This document shows, in pieces, positions 11,140-62,010 of a stretch of DNA of 64,000 bases; positions within the stretch are counted from its first letter, which is position 1; each line of letters begins with the position of its first letter. The stretch comes from a virus (taxonomy: Duplodnaviria; Caudoviricetes), in IMG/VR virus record IMGVR_UViG_3300028364_000013, one strand, 5' to 3'. Position numbers and translations under genes: made by a program. Under the pieces are notes generated by a model. It saw only the letters and a program-made list of their open reading frames with translations. It had not been told where the DNA came from and did not search any database.

Positions 11140-12231
11140 TTATTTAACTTCATCCAAATTTTTCTTCAAATCTCTTAATTGTTCGATAAGGTGAATTTCA
11201 TCTTCAGAATATTCTTCTTGAATAATAAGGTCAAGCTCTACCATGTAATTTCCAAAAGCTCCTTCTGGGGCTGCAGATACACTAAAGTTCTTGCCCAAAT
11301 TCAACATTGGCATTCCATAACCTTTTAGTCTGAATACTTTGCGATTTTGAGTTCCAGGCTTAATTACAAGGTTTGTAACTTTGCCATGAATAGTTGGAAT
11401 CTCCATCTTTGTTCCTAATGCAAGGTCTTCAAAACTAACTTTATGTCTATAAACTAAGTCTTTTCCAAATCTCTCAAATTTATCATGAGCAATTTCCTGA
11501 ATAGTAAAAATAGCATCACCTCTCATTCCTCCTGGATATACTGAATAATGACCCTTTTGCTCTGTCATAAGACTCTCTCCATTTTGAACTCCTCTTGGAA
11601 ACGTTATGATAGCATTTTCAGTTTCAATTACAGTACCTTGTCCTTTGCAGTCCGAGCAGTTTTCGTCAATTATAACTTTTGCACCTTGGCACACATTGCA
11701 GGTAACTATATCTTGTCTTGTAAACGCCCCCATATTTTGAACTACAGCTCTATGCCCAGTTCCTCCACATGTAGTGCAAGAATGATAAGCAGTACCACCC
11801 TTAGCTCTGGTTCCATGACAACTTCCACAAACCTTTTTAACATTAAAAGGAACCTCTTTTGTACATCCAGTGTAACACTCTTCAAGAGTAAGCGCTATTT
11901 TTATAACAACATTATGACCCCTTTGTCTCATCATCTCCTGCTCTCTCCTAAGCTCTTCAAACATTTCTCTGGCAGAACTTCCAAATCCTCCTCCAAAACC
12001 TTGTTTGCTTGCGCCTTCCCAGTTGTGACCATACTGGTCATATAATTTTCTTTTCTCTGGGTCGCTAAGAACATCGTTTGCTTGGTTTAGTTCTTTAAAC
12101 TTTTCCTCTGCATCTGAGTCTCTAGGATTAACGTCTGGATGATACTTCTTAGCAAGTTTTCTGAATGCTTTTTTGATGTCAGCATCAGCAGCGCTTTTTT
12201 GAAGCCCTAATATTTCGTAATAATCTCTCAT
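11140..12231 (-). CDS. dnaJ: DnaJ co-chaperone
   Basis: J domain with HPD, four CxxCxGx repeats, C-terminal domain. Confidence 0.95.
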
Positions 12232-14171
12232 TATAATCTTGGGTCAATTTCTCGTTCGTTTCTTTCTTCAATTACCATCTCACCAAAAGCTTGCACATAA
12301 TGCGCATTTTCTTTGCTGATTTTGTTATATGGAATTTCAAGCAATCTTTTTCCTATTTCCCACTCGTTAACAGATGTTTCCAATTTTCTGAACACTTTTT
12401 TTCTGTTAATAAGCTTTTCAAGTTTTGTGGACATCAAGTAATCTGGTCCATAAATAATTGTCAAGTATCTTGGGTTTCTAACCTTCATTGCAGGAACTAC
12501 ACCTTTAACATAAACAGTCAATGGCTTAAGCATTATTCCCTCCATTTCTTCATCAATGGTAGTCGTATCATAAAACGCTTTAAGCTTCTTAAGGTCTTCT
12601 TCACTCTCAAGGTCAACAACAATATAGTTATCGCTATTTATGGCTTTGTAGATGTCTTCATTTGAAGCGTCAAAGAATAATTTCTCTGCTCCACCTGTGA
12701 ACACTTGCTTTAAGATAGAGAAAGGCTTAAAGTGAACTTCTCCTTCAGAACCGTAAAGCTCAATCTGACGAGAGTAAATCTTAATCATTGCATCAAAATC
12801 ATCTATGCTATCAAATTCTCTGATGTAATCTTTTATTGCTCTAAACGTTCTTTCGTTGTTAGAACCAACCTGATTGATTATATCTTTTCTTGATGTCTTG
12901 TGAGATATTGTTTCAAAATCACAATCTTTATAAGGGCCGTTAACAATTTCGTTAAGAGCTTCTTCAAAACCGTTTTCTTTAAGGAATTCTATCTCACTGG
13001 TAACAGCTTTGTCAACAGTTACAAAATTTCTTTCAATCAACCCTTTTCCAATTGAAGACCAAGGAAGAAGTTCTGCATCCAATATAAGAAGCTCAGTTTT
13101 ACCTTCAAATGCTTCTTTTATAAATGGAATCTCATAAAGAGGCTTGTACGCTTCAGTAAGGTCAAGATTCTCTGGCTTAACCATATAACCCTGTCTTGTT
13201 GTAGTATAATTCTTGCTTGAGTCTTTAAAAAGGTAGATATTAGCTCTTGAACCCATGTATTTAGGTTGTGCTATAATCTTGGTAACTCCATTTTTTCTGA
13301 AATATTCCACCCCTTTATCAAGAGACTCTAATTCACTTTCTTGAAGGTAAATATCTTTATTCTCGTCTCTAACAATGTTTTTATCCGCAGGACATATTGT
13401 TCCAGACACAAAGTTTACACTCTGCTCTGAAGCGTGGAAAATCCTCCCCCTCTCTTTGCCTTCCAGGTTATCCATAGAGATTCTTGGAGGAGGAGTAAAG
13501 AAGAAATCATTTAACTCTTTCTTAACAATGTTTTCATTTGTTGCAGGAGTTTTTCTTGAGATATTTCTACCAAACGGGTTGATAATAATAGAACTCAAGT
13601 GCCCACCGCTAACTGCACCGCTATCAAGGTTTACTTTGTTTGCTTTAATTGCAATCCCTCTTGTTGAAACGTGTCCAAACAAATGGTAAGGCAAAGAACG
13701 ACTTGCTTGCTTTCTAAAGAATCCGAAAAACTTAGACTTTGCAGCCAAGTAATCTTGCGGAGTATCAAACTCTGCTTGCTTAGGGTACACAATCGTTCTC
13801 TGATTTCTTTCTGAAACAGAGCCAAGTTTACCAAGGTACTTCTGGTCACAAGGAGCATGAGTAACAATAAAGTGGTCAGACTTCAAAAATGGCTTCATAA
13901 CTTCGTAGATGTCAAAAAACTTTTGCTTAAGCTCTTCGTCTGCTTCGAAAGTTTTAATGCTATCAAAGTAAGTGTCCATCACATCTTGTGGTGGCAAATC
14001 CTTGGCAGCCATATCATTCTTAAGAAATCTGTATACGAAATTCTCATGATTACCTCTAACCATGTAGAACATATCCATGTTATTGTGAATTAACTCAATA
14101 ACAGAACGAACATCATAACCTTTGTCTATAACGTCTCCACATAAAATGATGCGTTTTTCTTTTTTTTCCAT
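12231..14171 (-). CDS. pnkp: Pnkp C-terminal piece (rest of metallophosphatase plus adenylyltransferase/ligase domain)
   Basis: [20 protein letters not shown], then [34 protein letters not shown] end; lacks the GDIHG motif. Confidence 0.88.
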
Positions 14172-16392: not shown

Positions 16393-17703
16393 TTACTTAA
16401 ATTTTACAATAAATCCTTGACTTGGTGTTACACCGTCAACAACATCTCCAATTCCAAACCATTCAGCTAACTCAATTCTGTTATTTGGCATTTCAAGAAC
16501 ATCGTTCATAAAATCCTCAAATTCTTCTCTTGTTGGCTCCCAATCATGGTCATCATGACGCATTCCTTCCATAAAGTAGTTATCATTAAATCTTGCATCT
16601 GGAGTTGTAACAATAAGAGTGCTAACGTTGCATCCAAGAATGTCATTCATTAACAACTTAGCATCTTCAATTGGCATGTGCTCAATAACCTCAGTGCAAA
16701 CAACATCAAGTTTTTTTTCTTCATCATAATTGTGATGCTCTGTTTTCATAAACCCCTTGACAGACTCAAAGAAATGAACATTCTTCATGCTCTTTTGCTT
16801 AACTCTCTTTTCGGCCTTAGCTCTCTCAACTGGGTCAATGTCCACAGCAAAATAATCTTTGTCCTTCATGAATCTATTGAACCTGGTGATGTACTTTCCT
16901 TCGCCACAACCAACATCAAGAATGTTGTTATTGAATTCAAGCCTATCTTGTATTGCCATTTGTCTGGCTTGCCATGTGTTACCAAGAGTCATAGTGATTT
17001 CATTCTTTCTATTTTTAGAAAGCTCTTCCTGCAGACCTCTGAATAACTTAAAGTTTTCAAGAAATCTAATCTTAAATAAGTATCTCACAAAGTAAGGAGC
17101 ATCCAAAATATTCATACACCTAATGTATTTAGACGCACTCTCTTCACTCACAAACATTGGTTCATTATTCACAATCGCTTGGAAGATAGAAAATAGACTT
17201 GCGAAATTTAATAATTCGTAAATAGATTTTTTAGTAGTGATTGTGATTTTATAGTTTTTTCCAGAAATTAATTCAGAATTAACCTCAAACCCTGGAAAGT
17301 AATCTTGAAATGCACTTATGTATCTTTCGTTTTTAACATATATCATGTTAATGAAAAATGTGCTCTCAAGTCCACCTTCATCTTTTTTATCTCCATCTGG
17401 AGCAGTGTATTCATCACTTTTAAATGCTGAACGAAACATTTCATCAATTGCGCTAACAACAAATGAAGCAGAATTATATCTACTTGTATTAAGGTATTCA
17501 AACGTTTCTCCTTCATAAGATGGGAATGAAACTTCATCACTACCATCTTTAAAGTAGATATTAAAACTTTGTTCATTGCCTTTGGTGAAAAACCCAAACA
17601 CAACTCCTTGTTTAATATTCTTTGCTACCAACCCTGTTCCAGGATTCTTTTTTATGATAAAGGAAAAATCCTTATTATCACTTTTCAATTGAACTATGCT
17701 CAT
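16393..17703 (-). CDS. hen1: Hen1-type RNA 2'-O-methyltransferase
   Basis: LDVGCGEG, EVIEH, VTTPDARFN, RHDDHDWE, TPSQ; directly upstream of pnkp. Confidence 0.85.
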   Translation of the reverse strand: MSIVQLKSDNKDFSFIIKKNPGTGLVAKNIKQGVVFGFFTKGNEQSFNIYFKDGSDEVSFPSYEGETFEYLNTSRYNSASFVVSAIDEMFRSAFKSDEYTAPDGDKKDEGGLESTFFINMIYVKNERYISAFQDYFPGFEVNSELISGKNYKITITTKKSIYELLNFASLFSIFQAIVNNEPMFVSEESASKYIRCMNILDAPYFVRYLFKIRFLENFKLFRGLQEELSKNRKNEITMTLGNTWQARQMAIQDRLEFNNNILDVGCGEGKYITRFNRFMKDKDYFAVDIDPVERAKAEKRVKQKSMKNVHFFESVKGFMKTEHHNYDEEKKLDVVCTEVIEHMPIEDAKLLMNDILGCNVSTLIVTTPDARFNDNYFMEGMRHDDHDWEPTREEFEDFMNDVLEMPNNRIELAEWFGIGDVVDGVTPSQGFIVKFK

Positions 17704-21275: not shown

Positions 21276-22754
21276 TTAATTAAATTCGTTTTCAACTGGC
21301 GTTTTAGTGTAATCATAAACTTCGCCAAGCGTTTTTCTCATGTCACCTATATTCAAAACCACATCATTTGTTGTAAATTCACAAGGATGTTTATATCCAG
21401 CAGCATGTGTTACTTGAATTATATCTTTCTTTAAGGTATTAATAAAATTTCCAACTCTATCACCCTTCTCGCTAACATTAACCCCTTTTTCCAACCACCA
21501 CTTATGAGTTGCAATCCCAGCTGGACAATTTCCAGTATGACATATTTGCGCTTGAATGCATCCTGCCGAAATCATTACTTCTCTCGCAATGTTGATAACA
21601 TCAGCTCCCATTGCAAATGCTTTAGCAGCTCTTGTTGGATGCCCCAATTTTCCGCTGGCAATCCAAACCATATTATCCATTGCTCCTCTGAGTTGAAATA
21701 TCTTATAGACAGATGTGAATGCATCATCCAAAGGAAGACTCATGTTATCTGCAAACGCTGCAGGAGCAGCTCCAGTTCCACCCTCTCCGCCATCAATTGT
21801 TATAAAATCTGGACCGACACCTCTTGTCATTTTCTGAGCAAGCTCATGCCAAAATTCTAATTTACCGACAGCGGACTTGATTCCAACTGGCAGCCCTGTT
21901 AGCCTCGCAATGTCTTCAATTAAAGCAATCAGCTCATCAACATTTGAAAACGCACTGTGGTATGCGGGGGAATTAACATCTTTCCCCTTTTCAATACCTC
22001 TTATGTCTGCTATTTCTTTTGTTACCTTCTTCCCTGGCAACATTCCACCTTTTCCTGGCTTCGCACCTTGAGATAATTTAATCTCAATCATTTTGATGTT
22101 CTTGCCCGTGTCTATAAGGTGCAGTAATTTATCCATGCTAAATTGTCTGTTCCCATCCCTATCTGTAGTGCCGCATCCAAAATACCCAGTTCCAAAGTGA
22201 AATACAACATCTGCACCTCCTTTGTGATATTTAGAATATCCACCTTCGCCAGTATTGTGATAAGAATTTGATTTATATGCCCCTCTGTTATTTGCTTCAG
22301 TTGCTCTTTTGCCAAGAGAACCATAACTCATCGCTGAGATATTAATTACCGAATTAGGTCTGTATGGCTTTTCTCTTCTCATCCCAATTGTCTTAGCACA
22401 AGGAAGTACGTCTGGAGCAATTGCGTTAATTGTGTTGTTAATGTTCGTTGGAAACGCATTTGTTTTAATAAAGAAGTTTCCACTTTTATCGAAGTCCATG
22501 TCGGAACCAAATCCAGTCAGATTGTTCTGCTTCTTTGCGCTTGCATAAATATAGTTTCTCCAAACCCTATTAAAAGGTCCCTCCTCTCTATTGTTAGCAA
22601 CCCAGTACTGTCGAAGTTCTGGTCCAATCTTCTCAAGGAAATACCTTAACCTCCCAATCAATGGGAAATTGCTTTTGATTGTATGTTTTCTATTAAAGGT
22701 GTCGTAAACCACCAGCAACAATAACAATCCCAATATAGTGTATAATATGTTCAT
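21276..22754 (-). CDS. FMN-binding glutamate synthase family protein
   Basis: SAMSYGSL, NTGEGG, EIKLSQGAKPGKGG, IDGGEGGTGAAP, CHTGNCPAGIATH. Confidence 0.92.
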   Translation of the reverse strand: MNILYTILGLLLLLVVYDTFNRKHTIKSNFPLIGRLRYFLEKIGPELRQYWVANNREEGPFNRVWRNYIYASAKKQNNLTGFGSDMDFDKSGNFFIKTNAFPTNINNTINAIAPDVLPCAKTIGMRREKPYRPNSVINISAMSYGSLGKRATEANNRGAYKSNSYHNTGEGGYSKYHKGGADVVFHFGTGYFGCGTTDRDGNRQFSMDKLLHLIDTGKNIKMIEIKLSQGAKPGKGGMLPGKKVTKEIADIRGIEKGKDVNSPAYHSAFSNVDELIALIEDIARLTGLPVGIKSAVGKLEFWHELAQKMTRGVGPDFITIDGGEGGTGAAPAAFADNMSLPLDDAFTSVYKIFQLRGAMDNMVWIASGKLGHPTRAAKAFAMGADVINIAREVMISAGCIQAQICHTGNCPAGIATHKWWLEKGVNVSEKGDRVGNFINTLKKDIIQVTHAAGYKHPCEFTTNDVVLNIGDMRKTLGEVYDYTKTPVENEFN

Positions 22755-22810: not shown

Positions 22811-24352
22811 CTACGCTAATTCCTTAATTTTATTAAGTAGAGCTTCAATTCTTGCTTTAGTTTCTTTAGAACCAATTACATACATTACATCTGGCAGTTG
22901 TGGGCCAGAGGCACCTCCACAAATAGCCACTCTAAGCATTGGCATTATTTTACCAACACCAATGTTCATATTACCAGAGATGTGCTCAAGTTCATACCTA
23001 ATGTTCTTGGGTATCCAGTCGTATTCCTCGAAATTACTCATGAAGTCATCAGCTGCAAATACATTCATAACCTTTATAAACTCTTCAACGTTCTTCATCT
23101 TGATTTCACCTTCAAGAGTAGGAGTATTATAAATGTAGCTCAAGCTATCTTTTAGTTCGTGAGAAAATTCAACACGCTCAACAGCCATACTTGCAATTAA
23201 ATCAAGTTTGTCATGGTCCATAGACAAAAGGAAGTCTTCTGGCATATCAGTCATTTCCGACAGAATAGAGTCAGCATCCCTCGACCTTAAGTAATGAGAA
23301 TTGAAGTTCATCAATTTCTTCTTATCGAACATTGCACCAGCCTTATTAACACTTTCAAGACTAAATAAATCAATCATTTCTTTGATTGACATTATTTCTA
23401 CATTGTTCTTAGGATTCCAGCCAAGAAGAACTAAGAAGTTTAAAAGAGCATCTGGCTCGTAACCTTCATGCTTAAACCCAGTTACATGAGCTTTTTTGTC
23501 CTCATGAGTGATATAGTCCCAAGTCAACGGGAAAATAGGGTAGCCATACTTATCTCCATGTCTCTTGCTTAATTTCTTTCCATCATCTCCAAGAAGAAGT
23601 GGTAAGTGAGCAAAAATAGGAGCATCCCATCCAAAAGCTCTATAAATAAGAACATGAAGTGGCGTAGCAGATAACCACTCTTCACCACGAATAACATGAC
23701 TAATTTCCATTAACTTATCATCAACAATATTTGCAAGATGATAAGTAGGGAGTCCGTCAGAAGATTTCCAGATAACTTTGTCATCAAGGTCTTTCGTATT
23801 GAACTTAACCCATCCTCTAACTTCATCATGAAACTTAATATCTTCAGCTCTTGGCATTTTAAACCTAATTGTATACGCTTCTCCAGCATCAATCTTAGCT
23901 TTAGCATCACTGGCAGACATTGTTAGTGAGTTTTTCATTCTTTCTCTAACAACGCCAGTGTAACCACCTTTAACTCCAGCAGCCTCAAAGTCATCTCGCA
24001 TCTTTGTCAAGTCTTCTTTTGTATCAAATGCATAATAAGCATTTCCAGACTCAACAAGCATTTCAACATGCTCTTTGTAAATATCTTTTCTTTCAGATTG
24101 GATGTATGGCCCATGGTCACCACCTATGCCGTAACCTTCGTCTGGACTTATTCCAAGCCACTTAAGAGAGTCTGTTACATAATCAATTGCTCCATCAACC
24201 TCTCTGCTTGAGTCGGTATCTTCAATCCTTAAAATAAAATCGCCCCCATGCTTCTTGGCAAAGAGGTAATTAAATAAAGCAGTTCTCACGCCACCTATAT
24301 GCAAAGGTCCCGTGGGACTTGGTGCAAATCTTACTCTTATTTTCTTATCCAT
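22811..24352 (-). CDS. gltX: glutamyl-tRNA synthetase
   Basis: RFAPSPTG, HIGG, RIEDTD, IRGEEW, KLSKR. Confidence 0.97.
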   Translation of the reverse strand: MDKKIRVRFAPSPTGPLHIGGVRTALFNYLFAKKHGGDFILRIEDTDSSREVDGAIDYVTDSLKWLGISPDEGYGIGGDHGPYIQSERKDIYKEHVEMLVESGNAYYAFDTKEDLTKMRDDFEAAGVKGGYTGVVRERMKNSLTMSASDAKAKIDAGEAYTIRFKMPRAEDIKFHDEVRGWVKFNTKDLDDKVIWKSSDGLPTYHLANIVDDKLMEISHVIRGEEWLSATPLHVLIYRAFGWDAPIFAHLPLLLGDDGKKLSKRHGDKYGYPIFPLTWDYITHEDKKAHVTGFKHEGYEPDALLNFLVLLGWNPKNNVEIMSIKEMIDLFSLESVNKAGAMFDKKKLMNFNSHYLRSRDADSILSEMTDMPEDFLLSMDHDKLDLIASMAVERVEFSHELKDSLSYIYNTPTLEGEIKMKNVEEFIKVMNVFAADDFMSNFEEYDWIPKNIRYELEHISGNMNIGVGKIMPMLRVAICGGASGPQLPDVMYVIGSKETKARIEALLNKIKELA

Positions 24353-26602: not shown

Positions 26603-28000
26603 TTATAATTTACCTGGTGTTCTTGGGAAAAGAGTCACATCTTTTATGTTCTTCATACCCGTTGCAAATTGAACCAATCTTTCAAACCCTAATCCGAAAC
26701 CAGAGTGAGGTGCTGAGCCAAATCGTCTTGTATCAAGATACCAACTCATTTCTTCATGAGATATTCCAAATGCAGTCATTTTATCTTCAAGCACACCAAG
26801 TCTTTCTTCTCTCTGACTTCCGCCAACTATTTCTCCAATTCCAGGAAAAAGAATATCCATTGCAGCAACAGTTTTTCCATCTTCGTTATCACGCATATAG
26901 AATGCTTTGATTTCTTTTGGATAATCTGTAACAATTACTGGAACCCCTTTGAAGTGTTTCTCAACAAGATACCTTTCATGCTCTGACTGGAAATCCATTC
27001 CCCAATCTTCTACTGGGAATTCAAATTTACCTTTCTTTGCTGGCTTTGAGTTCTTAAGAATATCAAAAGCTTCAGTATATGTAACTCTTTCAAACTTGGT
27101 AATAGCTACATCTTCGAGCTTATCTCTAAGAGGAATACTTCTATCCTCTTTTTTCATGTTCTTTTCCTCTTCTTGAATATACTCATCAAGATAATCAATT
27201 TCAGCAGAACACTTCTGCAAAACATATCCTATAACATTTCTAAGATATGCTTCAGCAAGCATTGCTGTATAGTCAAGGTCGGCAAATGAAATCTCTGGCT
27301 CAATCATCCAGAACTCAGCAAGATGTCTTGATGTCTGACTTTTCTCTGCCCTAAATGTTGGACCGAATGTATAAACTCTACCAAGCCCAAGAGCTGCAGT
27401 TTCAGCTTCAAGTTGTCCAGACACAGTTAGACCCGCATCCTTTCCAAAAAACTCAATAGCCTCATCTACTCTAAACATTTCTCCAGCTCCTTCACAATCA
27501 CTTCCGCTTATAATAGGTGTATCAACCTGAATGAAACCTCCTCTATCGAAAAACTCGTGAGTCGCCATCTTAAGTTGGTGTCTTATTCTGAATATTGCTT
27601 GAAATAACTTTGTTCTTGTTCTTAGATGTGGATGAGCTCTAAAAAACTCCATCGAGTGTCTTTTTGGTTGCATTGGATAATCTTCTCCAGCTGCCCCTAT
27701 CAACTCTACAAATGCAGCATCAAAATCAACAGCTTGTTCTGAACCTTTTGATTCAACAGCTGCTCCAACAACTCTAATTGACGCTCCAGATGAAAATCTA
27801 GTTAAGTCAATTCCAAGTTCAGCACTAACAACCACTTGTAGGTTTTCAAACGTAGAGCCATCATAAAATACAATAAAAGAAACATTCTTGCTACCTCTTA
27901 TCGTTCTTATCCATCCAAATAATTCTACTTCTTCTCCAAATTTAATTAGAGGCATCTGCTCTGATGCTGTCAATATTGAAAATACACTTGCTCGTTTCAT
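26603..28000 (-). CDS. asnS: asparaginyl-tRNA synthetase
   Basis: GWIRTIR OB fold, LTVSGQL, FRAEKSQTSRHLAEFWMIEPE, GGSQREER, GFGLGFER. Confidence 0.95.
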   Translation of the reverse strand: MKRASVFSILTASEQMPLIKFGEEVELFGWIRTIRGSKNVSFIVFYDGSTFENLQVVVSAELGIDLTRFSSGASIRVVGAAVESKGSEQAVDFDAAFVELIGAAGEDYPMQPKRHSMEFFRAHPHLRTRTKLFQAIFRIRHQLKMATHEFFDRGGFIQVDTPIISGSDCEGAGEMFRVDEAIEFFGKDAGLTVSGQLEAETAALGLGRVYTFGPTFRAEKSQTSRHLAEFWMIEPEISFADLDYTAMLAEAYLRNVIGYVLQKCSAEIDYLDEYIQEEEKNMKKEDRSIPLRDKLEDVAITKFERVTYTEAFDILKNSKPAKKGKFEFPVEDWGMDFQSEHERYLVEKHFKGVPVIVTDYPKEIKAFYMRDNEDGKTVAAMDILFPGIGEIVGGSQREERLGVLEDKMTAFGISHEEMSWYLDTRRFGSAPHSGFGLGFERLVQFATGMKNIKDVTLFPRTPGKL

Positions 28001-28029
28001 AATTTTTTTTATATTCTGTCCACAATACA

Positions 28030-28055
28030 TTATACGCAAAATATGAGCAAATGTT
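28030..28055 (-). promoter_or_regulatory. ECF-sigma-type promoter
   Basis: GTAAAC-N16-CGTATAA upstream of asnS. Confidence 0.75.
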
Positions 28056-31210: not shown

Positions 31211-31879
31211 TTATTTTTCATATGACTTGAGCCATTTTCTAATAGCATTATCAGACACGCCATACTTTCTGCCAGTGGCAGAATACCCTAATTCGTCTAT
31301 TTCCTGTTTAAGTTGTGCAAACGGAGGTCGTTTAACTATTCTTTTTTTAAAATCAGATTTTTCCCTAATACTTGGGTCTTTTTTTTGTTTTGGTTTTGCA
31401 TTATGTTTACCGCAGTGAGTTGGAAGTGTTGCATTACAATTTGCGCAAACAATTCTGAGATTTTCAAGTCGATTATCATTATAGACCCCATTGATATGGT
31501 CGATAATTAAACTCATCTTCTTTCCCATCCAAATCTCGCCCTGGCCACAACCTGACATCTCGCATTTTTTTTCCTTTAAGCCCTCTTCATATAATCTCTT
31601 TTTTAAATGAGTCCTTCCATATGTTGAATCTTCGATAAGTATTTCTGAAAGAGGTTTCTTTCTTCTTAAAGCATTAGCGCCTAATGACCTTTTATATATT
31701 TCATCTCTTGTCTCAAAATGAGATGTATCAATACAGTGCATTTTTACATATTTGTGAAATACTTTATAGTTTCCACCTGCAGCTCTTAAATCTAAGTTTT
31801 TTAGCGCCCCTTTTATTGACCTTGCACTCTTTATTGCTTTCTCAAAATTTTCTTTTGAGTATCTTTCTTGTCTATTCAT
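31211..31879 (-). CDS. HNH homing endonuclease
   Basis: IDHING...DNRLENLRIVCANCNA; C-terminal HTH (YGVSDNAIRKW). Confidence 0.88.
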   Translation of the reverse strand: MNRQERYSKENFEKAIKSARSIKGALKNLDLRAAGGNYKVFHKYVKMHCIDTSHFETRDEIYKRSLGANALRRKKPLSEILIEDSTYGRTHLKKRLYEEGLKEKKCEMSGCGQGEIWMGKKMSLIIDHINGVYNDNRLENLRIVCANCNATLPTHCGKHNAKPKQKKDPSIREKSDFKKRIVKRPPFAQLKQEIDELGYSATGRKYGVSDNAIRKWLKSYEK

Positions 31880-31944
31880 ATTTATAAATAGACAATAAAA
31901 AAGGAAACACTATTGTTCGAACCTAATAACGTGTTTCCTTCTTG

Positions 31945-32020
31945 CTGCTCAGGAAGGCTTCGAACCTCCAAAAACTCCACATTCAAAGTGTGGCGACTTT
32001 ACCAATTTGTCCACTGAGCA
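31945..32020 (-). tRNA. tRNA-Gln(UUG)
   Basis: TGCTCAG/CTGAGCA acceptor, CCACA-CTTTGAA-TGTGG, TTCGAAG T loop. Confidence 0.9.
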
Positions 32021-32026
32021 ATTTAG

Positions 32027-32100
32027 TTGTAAGAGAAGGCTTCGAACCCTCAAATTCTCGATTCAGAGTCGAGTGACTTTACCAGTTTGTCTATCCTACA
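32027..32100 (-). tRNA. tRNA-Gln(CUG)
   Basis: CTCGA-CTCTGAA-TCGAG anticodon arm, full cloverleaf. Confidence 0.9.
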
Positions 32101-32166
32101 ATATCGCACACATTACTAATATCCCAACCCCTGCAGAGGTTGTCGTTCATAAAGCATATGCATACT

Positions 32167-32252
32167 TGGTTGTACAGGTAGGGCTCGAACCTACACGCCT
32201 TTTGGGCACCCGCTTCAAAGGCGGGCGAATCTGCCAGTTTCTCCACTGTACA
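32167..32252 (-). tRNA. tRNA with Gln anticodon UUG and a Leu-like long variable arm
   Basis: CCCGC-CTTTGAA-GCGGG, variable arm TGCCCAAAAGGCGT, A73, encoded CCA. Confidence 0.85.
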
Positions 32253-32293
32253 ATATTACACTTTACTATCAATGGTCAATAGTAAAGTGTTTG

Positions 32294-32364
32294 TTTCGGG
32301 GAGAAGATTCGAACTTCTATGGTCACTGTCAAAAAGTGAAATCCTGCCATTAGACGACCCCGAA
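32294..32364 (-). tRNA. tRNA-Gln(UUG)
   Basis: TTCGGGG/CCCCGAA acceptor, TCACT-TTTTGAC-AGTGA. Confidence 0.85.
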
Positions 32365-32375
32365 ATATTAAACAC

Positions 32376-32407
32376 AAAAAAAAGCCTGAACGTTCAGTCC
32401 AGGCTTT
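32376..32407 (-). terminator. attenuator terminator of the Gln leader
   Basis: AAAGCCTGGAC-TGAAC-GTTCAGGCTTT, 8-U tract. Confidence 0.9.
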
Positions 32408-32436
32408 AAATATTTTTGTTTTATTAACTAAAATGT

Positions 32437-32517
32437 TCAGGCACCACCAGGACTGTCCTCTTTCGAAGATTGTTGCTGCTGTTGCTGCTGTACGTTTATG
32501 TTAATTACTGTTTTCAT
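32437..32517 (-). CDS. poly-Gln leader peptide MKTVININVQQQQQQQSSKEDSPGGA
   Basis: 26 codons with CAG CAG CAA CAG CAG CAA CAA; terminator 30 nt downstream, then four Gln-anticodon tRNAs. Confidence 0.9.
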   Translation of the reverse strand: MKTVININVQQQQQQQSSKEDSPGGA

Positions 32518-32577
32518 TACTTTTAAATAGTATTCTTTTTTTGTTTACCAATAATCAGCGTGGTAATCCGCTATTTG

Positions 32578-32659
32578 TGACCCAGGTCGGAGTCGAACCG
32601 ACACGTCTTGCGACACACGCCCCTTAAACGTGCGTGTCTACCAATTCCACCACTGGGCC
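32578..32659 (-). tRNA. tRNA-Leu(AAG)
   Basis: Class II cloverleaf, CACGT-TTAAGGG-GCGTG, A73. Confidence 0.88.
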
Positions 32660-32763
32660 AATTTAACCATAACTTAGTAAAGTGCCTCTACCGTTCTACT
32701 GTCGAAGTTTGTTCGGGTGTTTACTCGCCTTGATAAGGACTGTCGATTGTTATAATTAATTTC

Positions 32764-32789
32764 TTATACGCAAATGTAATACTTTTGTT
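32764..32789 (-). promoter_or_regulatory. ECF-type promoter of the Leu(AAG)-Gln tRNA unit
   Basis: TGAAAC-N16-CGTATAA with embedded TACATTTG. Confidence 0.8.
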
Positions 32790-32865
32790 TCAATTATTCA
32801 ACTCTTTTTTTAATTATTTTTGTCGTAAGCAATAGGGTTCAGAAATTTTTAATATATTTATTGAT

Positions 32866-35609: not shown

Positions 35610-35682
35610 TAACTCCACCCAGATTCGAACTGAGACTTTAACGTTCGTAGCGTTAGGTGCTAATCCATTACACCATGGAGCT
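35610..35682 (-). tRNA. tRNA-Arg(ACG)
   Basis: TAACG-CTACGAA-CGTTA. Confidence 0.9.
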
Positions 35683-35985
35683 ATGAATTTCAAAGTGACA
35701 ATTAGCACAAACCAACATACACTTATCTAATTCTTCTTTTATTTTTTTATCAAACTTATGCGACTTCATTTTACTTAAAGCAAAACCTTTTTCTTTTGGG
35801 TCAAGGTGATGAAACTGTAAAGCTCCAACATATTTATCATATCCACATTTTTCACAACAACCACCTTTGTATTCAACGCATTTAATTTTAAACTTTCTAC
35901 CACGTTCTCTACTCTCTTCTTTATATCCAAGAGCCTCTAAAATTATTGGAAGTGCTGATTCTGTGTAAAATATTCTCGGTTTCAT
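35668..35985 (-). CDS. HNH endonuclease
   Basis: YKGGCCEKCGY, LQFHHLDP, CMLVCANCHFEIH; probable start MKPRIF. Confidence 0.85.
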   Translation of the reverse strand: MKPRIFYTESALPIILEALGYKEESRERGRKFKIKCVEYKGGCCEKCGYDKYVGALQFHHLDPKEKGFALSKMKSHKFDKKIKEELDKCMLVCANCHFEIHSSMV

Positions 35986-36000
35986 ATTTAAAATTTTTTG

Positions 36001-36081
36001 TACAGATGACGAGAGTCGAACTCGCACGCCTTTCGGCACTGGTTTCTAAAACCAGCGTGTCTACCATTCCACCACATCTGC
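36001..36081 (-). tRNA. tRNA-Leu(UAG)
   Basis: CTGGT-TTTAGAA-ACCAG, variable arm TGCCGAAAGGCGT. Confidence 0.92.
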
Positions 36082-36729: not shown

Positions 36730-36755
36730 TTATACGCAAATATAATACTTTTGTT
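36730..36755 (-). promoter_or_regulatory. ECF-type promoter of the Phe/Val/Leu/Arg tRNA unit
   Basis: TGAAAC-N16-CGTATAA with embedded TATATTTG; nearly identical to 32764..32789. Confidence 0.8.
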
Positions 36756-42283: not shown

Positions 42284-43831
42284 TTATTTTGTTTCTAATT
42301 TTATAAATGGTTTAATCTTTTCACACTGTTTTAGTGCGACTCTAATTTCTTCAAATTTTCCAGGAATTACTGGATAGTAGAGTTCATTTATTTTCGTAAT
42401 GGCATAGTGAATCTCTAGGACTAGCGGCCAACCTTTCTCAAGGTCTTTCCAAGGTTCTGCATCACCAATTCTCTTATTAAGTTCTTTTACAAGCTTGTTT
42501 GTCTCTTGAAGGGCGTCTGAAATTAGATAGTTGTTCCAAAGTGTTTTTATATTGTCAATTCTCTGGTCAAGTCCAACACACCATTTTTCTTCAGACACAT
42601 AAGAGTGGTCTAATTCAATATTTGGGTCATCCACGAACTTGTCGAGAGTCTTACTAGCCAATACGGTGACTCTGGTGACTAAATTACCATAATCATCAGC
42701 AAGGTCATTGTTGTATTTAGCTACAAGCAACTCTTCATCCCAAGATGAGTTTCCATAAGTTCTTAAACCCGCAAGCGCATAGTAACGAACTGCATCAACT
42801 CCATATTTTTTAACTTGGTCAATAGGGTCAACAACATTTCCAACAGACTTACTCATCTTACGTCCATCTTTATCCAAAATAGTTCCATGAACAAGTAATT
42901 TATCTGTTTTTTTGATTCCTGCAGACATTAATAGTCCCTGAAATATTACAGACTGGAATTTAAGGTTATCTGGGCCACAAATCTGAATTACTTCAGACTC
43001 ATTCCACCTTTCTTCAAAGTCATGGTCGTCATGAAGGTCATTAGGGTAGTATCCTGCAGCAAATATGTAGTTTAACAAAGCATCAAACCATACATATATG
43101 ATTTGGTCTTCATCTCCTGGAACTGGGATTCCCCAACTAACAGTTTCTTTAACTCTGGATATAGAAATGTCCTGAAGATTCTCTATAATCTTATCGAATT
43201 CTCCAATCTTATTCTTTGGTTCAAAAAATTTGTCATTTACATGCAGCCACTGAAGAAACCTTTCTCTATATTTAGAAAGTTTGAAGAAATAGTTTTCTTC
43301 TTCAACTTCTTGAAGCTCTGTTGTTGGGTGGTCTGGACAAACTTTTCTTTTGTGTATATGCACCTTAGGATATTCAAGAGCAGGGTCAACTCCTCCAATA
43401 ATTCTATCCTCAAGTTCTCTATCGCTTTTGAATGACTCGCATCCAACACAATAGGTTCCAGTGTATTTCTTTTTGTAGATGTCGCCTCTATTGAAGGCTT
43501 CAACCCAGAACTGCTGAACATTCACATAATGCTCTGAGTCAGATGTTCTGTAAAATGAATCCCAGCTATCAATCTTAAGTTCTTTAATGAAATCTTCCCA
43601 ACTGTAAAGAAGGTCATCAACATATGCTTGAGGAGAAATACCCTTAGCTTCAGCTGCTTGCTGAATCTTTAAGCCATGTTCATCAAGACCAATATTGAAA
43701 AATACATTATCACCACGATATTTGAAATATCTCACCAAAGCATCAGCTATGATAAATTCAAAAGCGTGTCCTATGTGCGGATTTGAGTTCGCATATGGCA
43801 ATGTGGTCGTTATGTATTTATTTTTATTCAT
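42284..43831 (-). CDS. metG: methionyl-tRNA synthetase
   Basis: YITTTLPY, HIGH, YCVGCE, YVWFDAL, KMSKS. Confidence 0.95.
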   Translation of the reverse strand: MNKNKYITTTLPYANSNPHIGHAFEFIIADALVRYFKYRGDNVFFNIGLDEHGLKIQQAAEAKGISPQAYVDDLLYSWEDFIKELKIDSWDSFYRTSDSEHYVNVQQFWVEAFNRGDIYKKKYTGTYCVGCESFKSDRELEDRIIGGVDPALEYPKVHIHKRKVCPDHPTTELQEVEEENYFFKLSKYRERFLQWLHVNDKFFEPKNKIGEFDKIIENLQDISISRVKETVSWGIPVPGDEDQIIYVWFDALLNYIFAAGYYPNDLHDDHDFEERWNESEVIQICGPDNLKFQSVIFQGLLMSAGIKKTDKLLVHGTILDKDGRKMSKSVGNVVDPIDQVKKYGVDAVRYYALAGLRTYGNSSWDEELLVAKYNNDLADDYGNLVTRVTVLASKTLDKFVDDPNIELDHSYVSEEKWCVGLDQRIDNIKTLWNNYLISDALQETNKLVKELNKRIGDAEPWKDLEKGWPLVLEIHYAITKINELYYPVIPGKFEEIRVALKQCEKIKPFIKLETK

Positions 43832-51791: not shown

Positions 51792-53219
51792 TTAGTATTT
51801 CCTTTTTGAAGGGTCGTCATCAGCCATCCTAACCACTTGTGGTGTGAATGTACCAAGAATATCAATCAAGTTGTTTTGCGCTTCCATTACTTTCGTAATA
51901 TCTTTATAAGCATATGGAGCCTCATCGAGACCGCCACCAACAAGTGTTACCTTGTTATCTTTAAGAAGCTTAGTAACTGAGCTTTGAGTAAACGAGTTTC
52001 TCGCCACCTTTCTTGACATAGCTCTACCAGCACCGTGAGAAGCTGAAGATATTGAGTCAACAACACCTCTTCCTCTAACAATGAACCCTGGAGAAACCAT
52101 AGAACCTGGGATTATACCAAGGACACCTTTTCCAGCAGGAGTTGCTCCCTTACGGTGAACAATAACCTCTTTACCATCAATGATTTCCTTCCAAGCAAAG
52201 TTGTGGTGATTTTCAATCTTAGCCACTGGGTTTAACTTTAGCTCTTTGGTAATTCTTCTGTGAATCTCGTTGTGACAAGCTTGCGCATAATCACCAGCCA
52301 TATTCATAGCTATCCAGTATTCCACACCAGCTTCCGAATTCATATCAAGCCACGCAAGGTGTTGAGCTGCCTTTGGAAGAGGTGTTGTGTTCATAGCAAT
52401 TTCATGATACTTGTTGGCAAGTGTAGCACCGAACCCTCTTGAACCAGAGTGAGTTAATACACCAACATATTCTCCAACCTCAAGACCGAAGTCGTTAGTT
52501 GGGTCAGTTATCTTAACTATACCAAAGTCCACAAAGTGATTTCCACCTCCTGAAGTTCCAAGTTGTTTCCAAGCTTTGTCCTTAAGAGCTTTTATGTTTG
52601 GTATTTCATTGAACTCTTTCCTATCAAGGAATTCGTGTTCAGTTAATTTACCATCATTCTCAACTCCCATTCCGAAGAATGACTCAGACTTAAGAATGTT
52701 TTCAATCTTATCTCTATTTCCATCAATGTATGAACCACCTTTATCGTAGATGGTCATGTGCATTCTACAACCTATGTCAACACCAACTGCATATGGAATA
52801 ATAGCATTATCTGTAGCAAGGACACCTCCAATTGGAAGTCCATAACCTTGGTGAGCATCTGGCATAAGAGCTGCAGCAACAGAGATTGGCAATCTTGCAG
52901 CAAGTTTTATTTGCTCGTGAGCGCCTTCTTCTATGTTGTCTCCACCATATACAGTATATGGCACACCAACTTCTTTAAGTGGGATTTCAATCACTTCCTC
53001 TTCTACAGCTGGAATCAATAATTCAGCGATTGGCCCAAGAACAATGTCTTCAACATAATCTTCTGGAGTCAAAAGTACAGCCTTTAAAATATCACGTACA
53101 GTATCAAGGTCACTGTGCTTGTAAGCTTTTGTTACAATCTTCAATGTTACACCCATAACTTTACCTGGCTCCATTCCGAACGCCATAAGGTCTTTGCCTG
53201 TTATCTTTAACTTTACCAT
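51792..53219 (-). CDS. rtcB: RtcB RNA ligase
   Basis: MPDAHQGYG, GVDIGC, GTSGGGNHF, HSGSRG, HHN, VHRKGA, SHGAGR, DEAPYAYK. Confidence 0.95.
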   Translation of the reverse strand: MVKLKITGKDLMAFGMEPGKVMGVTLKIVTKAYKHSDLDTVRDILKAVLLTPEDYVEDIVLGPIAELLIPAVEEEVIEIPLKEVGVPYTVYGGDNIEEGAHEQIKLAARLPISVAAALMPDAHQGYGLPIGGVLATDNAIIPYAVGVDIGCRMHMTIYDKGGSYIDGNRDKIENILKSESFFGMGVENDGKLTEHEFLDRKEFNEIPNIKALKDKAWKQLGTSGGGNHFVDFGIVKITDPTNDFGLEVGEYVGVLTHSGSRGFGATLANKYHEIAMNTTPLPKAAQHLAWLDMNSEAGVEYWIAMNMAGDYAQACHNEIHRRITKELKLNPVAKIENHHNFAWKEIIDGKEVIVHRKGATPAGKGVLGIIPGSMVSPGFIVRGRGVVDSISSASHGAGRAMSRKVARNSFTQSSVTKLLKDNKVTLVGGGLDEAPYAYKDITKVMEAQNNLIDILGTFTPQVVRMADDDPSKRKY

Positions 53220-56595: not shown

Positions 56596-56608
56596 TTATA
56601 TTTTATTG

Positions 56609-56693
56609 AGGTCAGGGAGGGATTCAAACCCCCGATGGGCTTGCGCCTACAGATTTGCAGTCTGTCGTCTTCAATCACTCGAACCACCCGACC
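56609..56693 (-). tRNA. tRNA-Cys(GCA) with long variable arm
   Basis: ACAGA-CTGCAAA-TCTGT, variable arm GGC-GCAA-GCC, U73. Confidence 0.82.
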
Positions 56694-58225: not shown

Positions 58226-58323
58226 TGGACAATACGAGAATCGAACTCGTATCTCCAGTTTGCGCTATCCTGTGTGGTTGCACTTCATAGCCTTCACCGA
58301 TTTACCAATTAATCTAATTGCCC
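58226..58323 (-). ncRNA. tRNA-Ala-like RNA with an extended anticodon region
   Basis: G3:U70, A73, normal D and T arms, 47 nt instead of about 22 between them. Confidence 0.75.
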
Positions 58324-58398: not shown

Positions 58399-58442
58399 AA
58401 CTCTTCAATCGCCTTAAGTCGATTTCCGAGCTACTTAAGTAG

Positions 58443-58525
58443 TAGTGACGGTGGGAATTGAACCCACTTTGTACTTACGTACCCACGTTATCAGCGTGGT
58501 GCCTAAACCATCCAGCCCCGTCACT
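58443..58525 (-). tRNA. tRNA-Ile(GAU) with long variable arm
   Basis: CCACG-CTGATAA-CGTGG, variable arm GTAC-GTAA-GTAC, A73. Confidence 0.82.
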
Positions 58526-59798: not shown

Positions 59799-59899
59799 AG
59801 AATATGTTTATTATCAAGGCCTGCAACTCTATTGCTTGAGCAAGCCTCTTAACGTTTCTTATATTTCATCTTTTTATATTTCATTTTCTTTCTTTTTTG

Positions 59900-60930: not shown

Positions 60931-61016
60931 GGTGAAAGATGGGTTCTGACCCCACGACCTCCCGATTCACAGTCGGGCGCTCTACGACTTTCGTCTCCAG
61001 CTGAGCTACAATCACC
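60931..61016 (-). tRNA. tRNA-His(GUG) with an extra hairpin in the D loop
   Basis: G-1:C73, CCCGA-CTGTGAA-TCGGG, GAC-GAAA-GTC insertion, T loop GTCAGAA. Confidence 0.75.
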
Positions 61017-61984: not shown

Positions 61985-62010
61985 TTCTACGCAAATATAT
62001 AACTTTTGTT
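61985..62010 (-). promoter_or_regulatory. ECF-type promoter of the Asn/His/Thr/Lys/Ile tRNA unit
   Basis: AGAAC-N16-CGTAGAA with embedded TATATTTG. Confidence 0.7.

What the first reader, a model, noticed from the sequence alone, without database searches (positions are those of the whole stretch)
32376..32517. Poly-Gln attenuator directly upstream of four Gln-anticodon tRNAs
Seen: seven consecutive Gln codons using both CAG and CAA. Leader CAGTCCTGG (32447..32455, codons 20-24) can pair with CCTGGACTG (32395..32403) of the terminator, 8 of 9 pairs. The next four tRNAs are UUG, UUG, CUG, UUG. Inference: a ribosome stalled at codons 10-16 leaves the antiterminator free, while one reaching the stop masks it. 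This is the clearest of the four cases.
Basis: partly seen in the sequence, partly recalled or inferred. Interest (0 to 1): 0.93.

Follow-up and report, generated by a model that had tools for sequence, protein, structure and literature searches.

The report
Poly-Gln leader attenuator gating phage tRNA-Gln
A large uncultured lake phage places a 26-codon mini-gene with seven glutamine codons in a row, plus a switchable transcription stop, directly in front of its four glutamine tRNA genes. It therefore probably makes these tRNAs only when ribosomes read glutamine codons slowly, a control known for amino-acid genes that I could not find described for tRNA genes.

Summary
On the minus strand, a 26-codon ORF (32437-32517, MKTVININVQQQQQQQSSKEDSPGGA) is followed 29 nt later by an 11-bp terminator with U8. 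Eleven nt after that come four tRNA-Gln genes (UUG, UUG, CUG, UUG).

The Q7 run is the only run of 5 or more Gln in any frame of the 195-kb phage genome. The leader folds as a classic attenuator:
- The Gln codons pair with the distal leader.
- The distal leader (CAGUCCUGGU) can instead pair with the terminator's 5' arm.
- The stop codon lies 7 nt past that segment.

The genome holds five sister modules. Their leaders match their own tRNA clusters, and their distal segments match their own terminators. Each true assignment is the best of 720 permutations.

Eight further sequences from other metagenomes (seven of them distinct) keep the Q6-7 run, the switch segment, the stop and the terminator arms. 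The spacer, the terminator loop and the N-terminal codons drift. Two lineages carry in-frame, stop-free insertions.

My reading is leader-peptide attenuation that senses decoding of CAA/CAG and gates tRNA-Gln transcription (confidence 0.75; no expression data). I found no publication of this design. Earlier notes of this scan report the same design in at least 20 other phage genomes, so it is not unique to this DNA.

The parts
32767..32778 (-). Promoter-like element TACATTTGCGTA. It fits the Bacteroidota -7 box TAnnTTTG plus CGTA and heads the unit tRNA-Leu / leader / tRNA-Gln x4.
   Evidence: TAnnTTTGCGTA occurs 10 times in the genome, all on this strand, with a conserved upstream block. Five copies precede leader/tRNA units. 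The -7 consensus is from PMC9723704.
32577..32659 (-). tRNA-Leu(AAG). It lies upstream of the leader, probably on the same primary transcript, and is not gated by the attenuator.
   Evidence: ARAGORN. Rfam tRNA hit of 44.7 bits in the permissive scan.
32518..32531 (-). Conserved A/U-rich start context ACTATTTAAAAGTA directly 5' of the leader ATG. There is no Shine-Dalgarno sequence.
   Evidence: The CTAT(A)TTTA[GA]AAA motif lies just 5' of the leader ATG in modules A, B, C, E and F, but not D. It is also present in relatives, and it moves with the new ATG where insertions occurred. Phage genes in general lack SD: 4% against a 10.6% background.
32437..32517 (-). Leader ORF of 26 codons plus UGA: MKTVININVQQQQQQQSSKEDSPGGA.
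   Evidence: The ORF is kept in all 8 related sequences with the same stop codon.
32470..32490 (-). Regulatory codons (region 1): seven consecutive Gln codons, CAG CAG CAA CAG CAG CAA CAA.
   Evidence: It is the only run of 5 or more Gln in six frames of the genome. Relatives have Q6-Q7, with CAG/CAA exchanges and single-codon deletions.
32456..32469 (-). Apical hairpin of the leader stem: UCUUC GAAA GAGGA.
   Evidence: One pair changes from U-A to C-G in L014, a compensatory change.
32446..32455 (-). Region 2, CAGUCCUGGU. It pairs either with the Gln codons (leader hairpin) or with the terminator 5' arm (antiterminator).
   Evidence: It is paired in 100% of cells in 8 distinct sequences, with one A-U to G-U change.
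32437..32439 (-). Leader stop codon UGA, 7 nt 3' of the CAGUCCUGG core of region 2. A terminating ribosome would cover region 2.
   Evidence: Read from the sequence. Footprint model. The stop position is invariant in relatives.
32376..32407 (-). Intrinsic terminator (regions 3 and 4): AAAGCCUGGAC UGAAC GUUCAGGCUUU followed by five more U (eight U in all). The 5' arm and loop segment CCUGGACUG (32395-32403) is the antiterminator partner.
   Evidence: 11 pairs, loop of 5; -15.1 kcal/mol. The arms are near-invariant and the loop is variable in relatives.
32293..32364 (-). tRNA-Gln(UUG) number 1. It starts 11 nt after the U-run.
32167..32252 (-). tRNA-Gln(UUG) number 2, 86 nt, with an extra arm.
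32026..32100 (-). tRNA-Gln(CUG) number 3.
31944..32020 (-). tRNA-Gln(UUG) number 4.
31897..31941 (-). Terminator-like hairpin plus U-run that closes the tRNA-Gln unit.
   Evidence: My own terminator scan, genome coordinates 140101-140145.

Best explanation
This is a ribosome-mediated (leader-peptide) transcription attenuator that controls four phage tRNA-Gln genes.

Proposed sequence of events:
1. Transcription starts at a Bacteroidota-type promoter (about 32767-32778) and runs through tRNA-Leu(AAG) into a 26-codon leader.
2. A ribosome translates the leader while RNA polymerase moves towards the terminator.
3. If Gln-tRNA(Gln) able to read CAA/CAG is plentiful, the ribosome reaches the UGA stop. 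It then covers region 2 (CAGUCCUGGU), the terminator hairpin forms, and transcription ends 11 nt before the first tRNA-Gln.
4. If decoding of CAA/CAG is slow, the ribosome stalls in the Q7 run. Region 1 is occupied and region 2 is free to pair with the terminator's 5' arm (CCUGGACUG). The terminator cannot form and the four tRNA-Gln genes are transcribed.
5. Without translation, the Gln codons pair with region 2 and termination follows.

The output (tRNA-Gln) feeds back on the signal (decoding rate of Gln codons), so the loop is homeostatic. Slow decoding could arise because host tRNA-Gln is scarce, damaged or poorly matched to phage codon use.

What is shown: the sequence elements, their geometry, their conservation, the codon-to-tRNA match and the leader-to-terminator match.

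What is inferred: translation of the ORF, conditional termination, the sign of the response, and that tRNA supply rather than glutamine supply is the relevant signal.
For: (1) Elements and coordinates are confirmed.

(2) The Q7 run is the only run of 5 or more Gln in the genome, and it sits 106 nt 5' of the only tRNA-Gln cluster.

(3) The fold is a leader hairpin with the Gln codons paired to the distal leader, plus the terminator; z = -3.85.

(4) Footprint-constrained folds:
- A stall at Gln codon 10, 13 or 16 puts the antiterminator in the minimum-energy fold of the nascent RNA.
- A ribosome at the stop codon excludes it.

(5) Only 11 nt separate the U-run from tRNA-Gln number 1, which leaves no room for a promoter.

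(6) Six paralogous modules share the layout promoter (five of the six units), start motif (not in module D), leader of 26-39 codons, gap of 23-31 nt, terminator, tRNAs:
- Leader composition against tRNA cluster: the true assignment is the best of 720 permutations, at both amino-acid and codon level.
- Distal leader against terminator arm: the true assignment is again the best of 720. The diagonal sum is -78.7 kcal/mol, against a best fully mismatched sum of -55.3.
- Fisher combination of the shuffle tests gives 7e-6.

(7) Eight related sequences from other metagenomes, seven of them distinct:
- They keep Q6-7, region 2, the stop codon and the terminator arms.
- The spacer, the terminator loop and codons 2-9 vary.
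- Two pairs in the leader hairpin show compensatory changes.
- Two independent N-terminal insertions, of 33 and 26 codons, are in frame and stop-free. The conserved start motif has moved to the new ATG.

(8) Host-type signals fit. The -7 box is TAnnTTTG, there is no SD, and leader-peptide attenuation is reported as likely in Flavobacterium (PMC9723704).

(9) Context: the window also encodes GluRS, AsnRS, MetRS, RtcB, Pnkp and Hen1. The phage therefore invests heavily in tRNA supply and repair.
Against: - There is no expression, ribosome-profiling or 3'-end data of any kind.
- The antiterminator duplex of this module alone is only marginally better than shuffles (p = 0.05), and it has an internal U-U mismatch.
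- The antiterminator bases are almost invariant among relatives, so there is no covariation for that helix.
- The relatives are close (88% mean column identity). Conservation of the ORF could therefore partly reflect short divergence time.
- At equilibrium the terminator is more stable than the antiterminator, so the switch rests on kinetics. That is normal for attenuators but untested here.
- Transcription-translation coupling in the unknown host is assumed.
- A weak sigma-70-like match lies before tRNA-Gln number 2 (32279-32252, 9 of 12). If it is active, genes 2-4 would not depend wholly on read-through.
- In most relatives an 84-89 aa ORF lies between the attenuator and the tRNA-Gln genes, so there the switch may primarily gate that ORF.
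Confidence: 0.75

Rival explanations
1. The attenuator works as described, but the relevant signal is glutamine starvation or general translation stress of the host cell, as in amino-acid operons, and not the supply of tRNA-Gln. The tRNA genes would then simply be co-opted cargo, or in relatives the 84-89 aa ORF would be the real target.
For: - A stalled ribosome cannot tell missing tRNA from uncharged tRNA (established knowledge of trp/his attenuation).
- In 7 of the 8 related sequences an ORF of 84-89 aa lies between the terminator and the tRNA-Gln genes.
Against: - All six modules of the genome gate tRNA clusters, and each leader is written in the codons of its own cluster. That makes sense as a supply sensor and not as a starvation sensor, because more tRNA does not cure amino-acid starvation.
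- In this genome, and in L014, there is no ORF between the terminator and the tRNAs.
Confidence: 0.12
2. This is an ordinary constitutive terminator ending the tRNA-Leu(AAG) unit, next to a chance or non-regulatory small ORF. The tRNA-Gln genes would be transcribed from an unrecognised promoter or by leaky read-through.
For: - Terminators after tRNA genes are common.
- The antiterminator of this module alone is only marginally significant.
- There is a weak sigma-70-like match before tRNA-Gln number 2.
Against: - The unique Q7 run lies next to the unique tRNA-Gln cluster.
- There are two independent best-of-720 matches across the six modules.
- The start, the Q-run, the stop codon and region 2 are conserved while the spacer drifts.
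- The insertions in relatives are in frame.
- An 11-nt gap leaves no room for a promoter before tRNA-Gln number 1.
Confidence: 0.04
3. This is a ribosome-independent RNA switch. The CAG/CAA run would bind tRNA-Gln anticodons or a protein directly, in the manner of a T-box or TRAP, and so set terminator against antiterminator.
For: - The Q-run and the distal leader are conserved at synonymous positions too, which shows RNA-level constraint.
- tRNA-sensing leaders (T-boxes) exist.
Against: - No T-box match appears even at E up to 10.
- The reading frame, the start context and the stop position are conserved, and insertions are in frame and stop-free.
- The sister leaders use mixed codons for several amino acids, arranged as a reading frame.
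- Nucleotide-level conservation is also expected if the codons must form the leader hairpin.
Confidence: 0.05
4. The ORF encodes a functional Gln-rich micropeptide, and its position before the tRNA-Gln genes is incidental.
For: The ORF is conserved in nine sequences.
Against: - Codons 2-9 and the C-terminal residues vary, while the RNA-pairing segments do not.
- The peptide tolerates 26-40 extra N-terminal residues of unrelated sequence.
- The five sister ORFs encode unrelated cores that track their tRNAs.
Confidence: 0.03

Closest known systems
hisL / pheL / leuL / trpL leader-peptide attenuators of enterobacterial amino-acid operons (the his leader has seven consecutive His codons; textbook knowledge; modelled in PMC1183508)
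   Same: - A short leader ORF with a run of cognate codons (Q7 here).
- An intrinsic terminator, and mutually exclusive 1:2, 2:3 and 3:4 pairings.
- A stop codon placed so that a terminating ribosome masks region 2.
- The permissive Rfam scan even aligns Trp, Thr and His leader models over the full element, but far below threshold.
   Different: - The regulated genes are tRNA genes and not biosynthetic enzymes, so output and sensed molecule are the same species and the feedback loop is direct.
- It is encoded by a phage.
- It has Bacteroidota-type signals without Shine-Dalgarno.
- The leader follows a tRNA gene on the same transcript.
- There is no sequence-family membership.
pheM leader of the pheST operon and thrS/other translation-gene leaders (own knowledge: attenuation by a Phe-rich leader controls phenylalanyl-tRNA synthetase in E. 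coli)
   Same: A leader-peptide attenuator controls a component of the decoding apparatus for the same amino acid.
   Different: The target there is a synthetase (a protein). Here the targets are the tRNAs themselves, in a virus.
T-box riboswitches
   Same: They sense tRNA status and decide between a terminator and an antiterminator upstream of translation-related genes.
   Different: T-boxes bind uncharged tRNA directly through a specifier codon and the T-box sequence, without a ribosome. No T-box match is found here, and the element is an ORF.
Multivalent leaders ilvL and thrL (own knowledge)
   Same: The sister modules of this genome mix codons for several amino acids in one leader, as ilvL (Ile/Leu/Val) and thrL (Thr/Ile) do.
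   Different: The Gln module is monovalent. In the sister modules the mixture mirrors the tRNA genes downstream and not a shared pathway.

Membership tests
Ribosome-mediated (leader-peptide) transcription attenuators | A short translatable ORF in the 5' leader of the regulated genes | tested here: met
   A 26-codon ATG ORF at 32437-32517. It is kept in 8 related sequences with the same stop. In-frame, stop-free insertions of 26 and 33 codons occur with the start motif relocated. Translation itself is not shown.
Ribosome-mediated (leader-peptide) transcription attenuators | Clustered regulatory codons cognate to the regulated function | tested here: met
   Seven consecutive CAG/CAA codons. This is the only run of 5 or more Gln in six frames of 195 kb. 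The downstream anticodons UUG x3 and CUG x1 read exactly these codons.
Ribosome-mediated (leader-peptide) transcription attenuators | An intrinsic terminator between the leader and the regulated genes | tested here: met
   An 11-bp stem, 5-nt loop and U8 at 32376-32407, with energy -15.1 kcal/mol. It lies 11 nt before tRNA-Gln number 1.
Ribosome-mediated (leader-peptide) transcription attenuators | Antiterminator: the distal leader pairs with the 5' arm of the terminator | tested here: met
   - CAGUCCUGGU pairs with GCCUGGACUG at -14.5 kcal/mol.
- p = 0.05 against shuffles for this module alone.
- The pairing is specific for the module's own terminator, and the matched assignment is the best of 720 across the six modules.
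- It is 100% paired in 8 distinct sequences, but without covariation.
Ribosome-mediated (leader-peptide) transcription attenuators | Anti-antiterminator: the regulatory codons pair with the same distal segment | tested here: met
   The minimum-energy fold pairs the Gln codons with GUCCUGGUGGUGCCUG. The same architecture appears in all 9 sequences, with 92% of cells paired and 2 compensatory pairs.
Ribosome-mediated (leader-peptide) transcription attenuators | Geometry: a stalled ribosome frees the switch segment and a terminating ribosome masks it | tested here: met
   Footprint-constrained folds. The stop codon lies 7 nt after the CAGUCCUGG core of region 2. The last Gln codon lies 14 nt before it.
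Ribosome-mediated (leader-peptide) transcription attenuators | Read-through rises when the cognate charged tRNA is limiting | not testable with these tools
   This needs in vitro or in vivo assays. No RNA run holds this phage.
Ribosome-mediated (leader-peptide) transcription attenuators | The regulated genes are amino-acid biosynthesis, transport or synthetase genes (the classical scope) | tested here: not met
   The genes behind the terminator are four tRNA-Gln genes. This is the respect in which it is a new variant.
Rfam leader families Trp_leader RF00513, Thr_leader RF00506, His_leader RF00514 | A score at or above the family's gathering threshold | tested here: not met
   Scores are 19.6, 19.3 and 18.6 bits, against gathering scores of 41, 55 and 49. 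There are no hits at gathering level.
T-box riboswitch | A match to the T-box covariance model (stem I specifier, T-box sequence) | tested here: not met
   There is no T-box hit at gathering level in the window, nor at E up to 10 in 32280-32800.

The most novel reading that the evidence does not exclude
The phage carries a set of modular, codon-addressed sensors. Each tRNA cluster sits behind a mini-gene written in the codons that the cluster reads. The virus can therefore measure, codon family by codon family, how well the infected cell decodes, and switch on only the replacement tRNAs that are needed. One trigger could be cleavage or depletion of particular tRNAs by host anticodon nucleases or by host shut-off. 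The Gln unit would be the simplest, monovalent example of a direct tRNA-supply feedback loop. This regulatory principle is not described for tRNA genes in cells or viruses.
Probability: 0.5. Interest if true: 0.9.

Novelty: new variant of a known kind. Interest (0 to 1): 0.85.

Why it matters
tRNA genes are generally regarded as growth-rate controlled or constitutive. Phage tRNA arrays are usually discussed only in terms of codon usage or escape from tRNA-targeting defences.

A leader-peptide attenuator in front of tRNA genes would be different. It would be gene-specific, demand-driven control of tRNA synthesis, in which the ribosome itself reports the shortage. That gives a testable mechanism for how large phages tune or rescue translation.

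It would extend classical attenuation to a new class of targets and to Bacteroidota-type expression signals. It would also offer compact, codon-addressable sensors for synthetic biology. The Q7 unit is the cleanest case to test because one amino acid, two codons and four target genes are involved.

Tried and rejected
- **RNA evidence.** The look-up of sequencing runs listed no RNA holder. Read laying on four lake-water DNA runs gave only identical short contigs, with no variants and no information on transcripts.
- **Phage collection.** A megablast of 5.5 kb against the phage collection found only an HNH endonuclease fragment in Klebsiella phages, so no cultured relative was identified.
- **Viral contigs.**
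  - A search with the 255-aa neighbour protein found nothing.
  - Two DNA patterns from the Gln module found only the one relative already known.
- **Genome contigs.** A 17-base pattern gave 65 hits in unrelated bacteria. None has a Gln run together with a U-run nearby, so they are chance matches.
- **Antiterminator covariation.** It could not be assessed because the bases are near-invariant.
- **Rfam.** Sub-threshold hits to the Trp, Thr and His leader models are not membership.
- **Sigma-70 scan.** It is of little use for a phage with Bacteroidota-type signals.
- **More distant phage loci with tRNA arrays (L024, L029, L030, L039).** My simple scan found no convincing leader. L030 has a 46-aa ORF plus terminator 489 nt before an array that serves nearly all amino acids, which is uninformative.
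- **Literature.** Seven searches for leader peptides or attenuators before tRNA genes or phage tRNAs found nothing relevant. The library lacks most subscription journals.

Full report
**Where the window lies.** The window is the minus strand of bases 108042-172041 of a 195,333-base IMG/VR virus record. The record has 34% G+C and is estimated 78% complete. Near-identical DNA occurs in lake-water metagenomes. The genome carries about 45 tRNA genes in clusters, all on one strand. The window also encodes GluRS, AsnRS, MetRS, RtcB, a Pnkp-type ligase and Hen1. The promoter-like element TAnnTTTGCGTA occurs ten times, always on the coding strand. Phage genes lack Shine-Dalgarno cores: 4% against a 10.6% background. 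Both features fit Bacteroidota expression signals as described for Flavobacterium (PMC9723704). The host assignment is an inference.

**The observation.**
- The minus-strand ORF 32517..32437 reads MKTVININVQQQQQQQSSKEDSPGGA.
- Codons 10-16 are CAG CAG CAA CAG CAG CAA CAA.
- Twenty-nine nt after the UGA comes AAAGCCUGGAC-UGAAC-GUUCAGGCUUU followed by five more U, eight U in all (11 pairs, -15.1 kcal/mol).
- Eleven nt after the U-run starts the first of four tRNA-Gln genes with anticodons UUG, UUG, CUG, UUG.
- CAGUCCUGG (32447-32455) pairs with CCUGGACUG (32395-32403) at 8 of 9 positions.
- The Q7 run is the only run of five or more Gln in any of the six frames of the whole genome, and the four Gln tRNAs are the only ones.

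**Anatomy of the switch.**
- Leader hairpin: the 212-nt interval folds into a long imperfect hairpin in which the Gln codons pair with GUCCUGGUGGUGCCUG of the distal leader, plus the terminator (z = -3.85).
- Before the terminator's 3' arm is made: the distal leader can instead pair with the 5' arm and loop of the terminator.
- Stalled ribosome: with a 30-nt footprint placed on Gln codon 10, 13 or 16, this antiterminator is in the minimum-energy fold of the nascent RNA.
- Terminating ribosome: with the footprint at the stop codon, the antiterminator cannot form.
- No ribosome: the leader hairpin and the antiterminator are nearly isoenergetic, but the hairpin is transcribed first.

This is the classical 1:2 / 2:3 / 3:4 logic. 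Taken alone, the 2:3 duplex is only marginally better than shuffles: -14.5 against -10.2 +/- 2.3 kcal/mol, p = 0.05.

**Internal replication.** The layout recurs six times in the genome. Each unit has a leader of 26-39 codons, a gap of 23-31 nt, a terminator with U7-8 and then tRNAs. The promoter-like element heads five of the units (module D has none of its own). A conserved CTAT(A)TTTA[GA]AAA start context lies just before the leader ATG in five of the six leaders. The leaders of the Gln and Ser/Arg modules begin with almost the same 20 nt, so the modules are paralogues. Two tests used whole leader ORFs and only confidently called tRNAs.
- Codon match: the fraction of leader codons served by a cluster's tRNAs is highest for the true leader-cluster assignment among all 720 permutations. 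This holds at both amino-acid and codon level.
- Terminator match: the duplex energy between each distal leader and each terminator 5' arm is best for the true assignment among all 720. The diagonal sum is -78.7 kcal/mol, against -55.3 for the best fully mismatched arrangement. The Gln leader gives -14.5 with its own arm and -5.0 to -10.2 with the others.

The terminators differ in sequence, so this amounts to covariation across paralogues. The combined shuffle test gives 7e-6.

**Relatives.** A neighbouring 2OG-oxygenase gene and an ORF found next to the attenuator in relatives led to eight further sequences from other metagenomes, seven of them distinct. All have a Q6-Q7 leader, the same stop, the same terminator arms and two to four tRNA-Gln(UUG) genes.
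- Conserved in the nine-sequence alignment: the Gln run, the distal leader through the stop codon, and the terminator arms are almost invariant.
- Variable: codons 2-9, the spacer (which has indels) and the terminator loop.
- Gln run: two lineages have lost exactly one Gln codon, and CAG/CAA exchanges occur.
- Leader hairpin: 92% of cells are paired, with two compensatory pairs.
- Antiterminator: it is paired in every sequence, but shows only an A-U to G-U change, which neither supports nor contradicts it.
- Insertions: in L011 and in L107/L108, unrelated insertions of 33 and 26 codons follow the start codon. Both are in frame and stop-free, and the conserved start-context motif sits before the new ATG. 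This is the best sequence evidence that the frame is read.
- Sister leader: the Phe/Leu/Val leader is likewise conserved in two relatives.

**Interpretation.** I conclude that this is a leader-peptide attenuator gating tRNA-Gln transcription, with confidence 0.75. Slow decoding of CAA/CAG gives read-through, and efficient decoding gives termination. The product of the gated genes relieves the stall, so the circuit is a negative feedback on tRNA-Gln supply. The phage's synthetase and tRNA-repair genes fit a lifestyle in which tRNA supply is contested, but that link is inference. Rivals are given separately. The main open point is what is sensed, tRNA supply or glutamine. In most relatives an 84-89 aa ORF is also behind the switch.

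**Comparison with what is known.** The element works like hisL, pheL or trpL. It is not a member of the Rfam leader families, where it scores far below threshold, nor is it a T-box. It departs from the classical class in its targets, which are tRNA genes, and in being viral. Seven literature searches found no description of leader-peptide control of tRNA genes. The library is incomplete, so this is absence of evidence only. Earlier notes of this same scan report the design in at least 20 other phage genomes and, for this genome, list the six modules. I verified the claims for this genome but not those for other genomes.

**Verdict.** This is a new variant of a known kind of regulation, apparently unpublished, and the Gln unit is its simplest test case.

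Noticed in passing
L003:15621-16047 (genome 105621-106047, about 2 kb beyond the window's end): A GOLLD RNA (RF02032, 169 bits, above the gathering score) lies between tRNA clusters of the same phage.
   Followed up: no
window 32167-32252 (-); also 56608-56693 and 58442-58525: One of the four tRNA-Gln(UUG) genes is 86 nt long, with a class-II-like extra arm and a 6-bp anticodon stem. A tRNA-Cys (86 nt) and a tRNA-Ile (84 nt) are similarly long. The long Gln copy is kept in the relative (L012:13587-13671). Which synthetase charges such a tRNA is unclear.
   Followed up: partly
window 12231-14171, 16393-17703, 22811-24352, 26603-28039, 42284-43831, 51792-53219 (all -): The window holds a dense set of translation and tRNA-repair genes. 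They are a Pnkp-type ligase, Hen1, GluRS (gltX equivalog), AsnRS, MetRS and RtcB. A glutamate-synthase-like domain protein lies at 21276-22754.
   Followed up: partly
window 59849-59884 (-): A mini-ORF, MKYKKMKYKKR (6 Lys in 11 codons), is followed by a stable hairpin without a U-run. It lies directly 5' of tRNA-Lys(CUU) and tRNA-Lys(UUU), inside the Asn/Thr/Lys/Ile cluster. It may be a second-tier, Lys-specific control element.
   Followed up: partly
window, 5' flank of nearly every tRNA gene (for example 32365-32369, 32253-32257, 32101-32105): Almost every tRNA gene is directly preceded by (A)ATAT. This may be a processing or spacing signal.
   Followed up: no
window 32767-32778, 36733-36744, 61988-61999 (-), and seven more copies in the genome: A promoter family TAnnTTTGCGTA, with a conserved upstream block (AAAGATTTGGATTTAATAGAAC-like), has ten copies. 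All are on one strand, and five head leader/tRNA units.
   Followed up: partly
L012:13073-13327, L011:2348-2611, L107:419-682, L109:6001-6270, L111:1114-1371, L112:2457-2720: In relatives a conserved 84-89 aa ORF of no known family lies between the Gln attenuator and the tRNA-Gln genes. It is absent from this genome.
   Followed up: partly
window 60931-61015 and 58226-58323 (-); HNH genes at 31211-31879 and 35668-36039: tRNA-like genes with insertions are found by Rfam but not by ARAGORN. One is probably tRNA-His(GUG) with an enlarged D-loop. Several HNH homing-endonuclease genes are interspersed among the tRNA genes.
   Followed up: no
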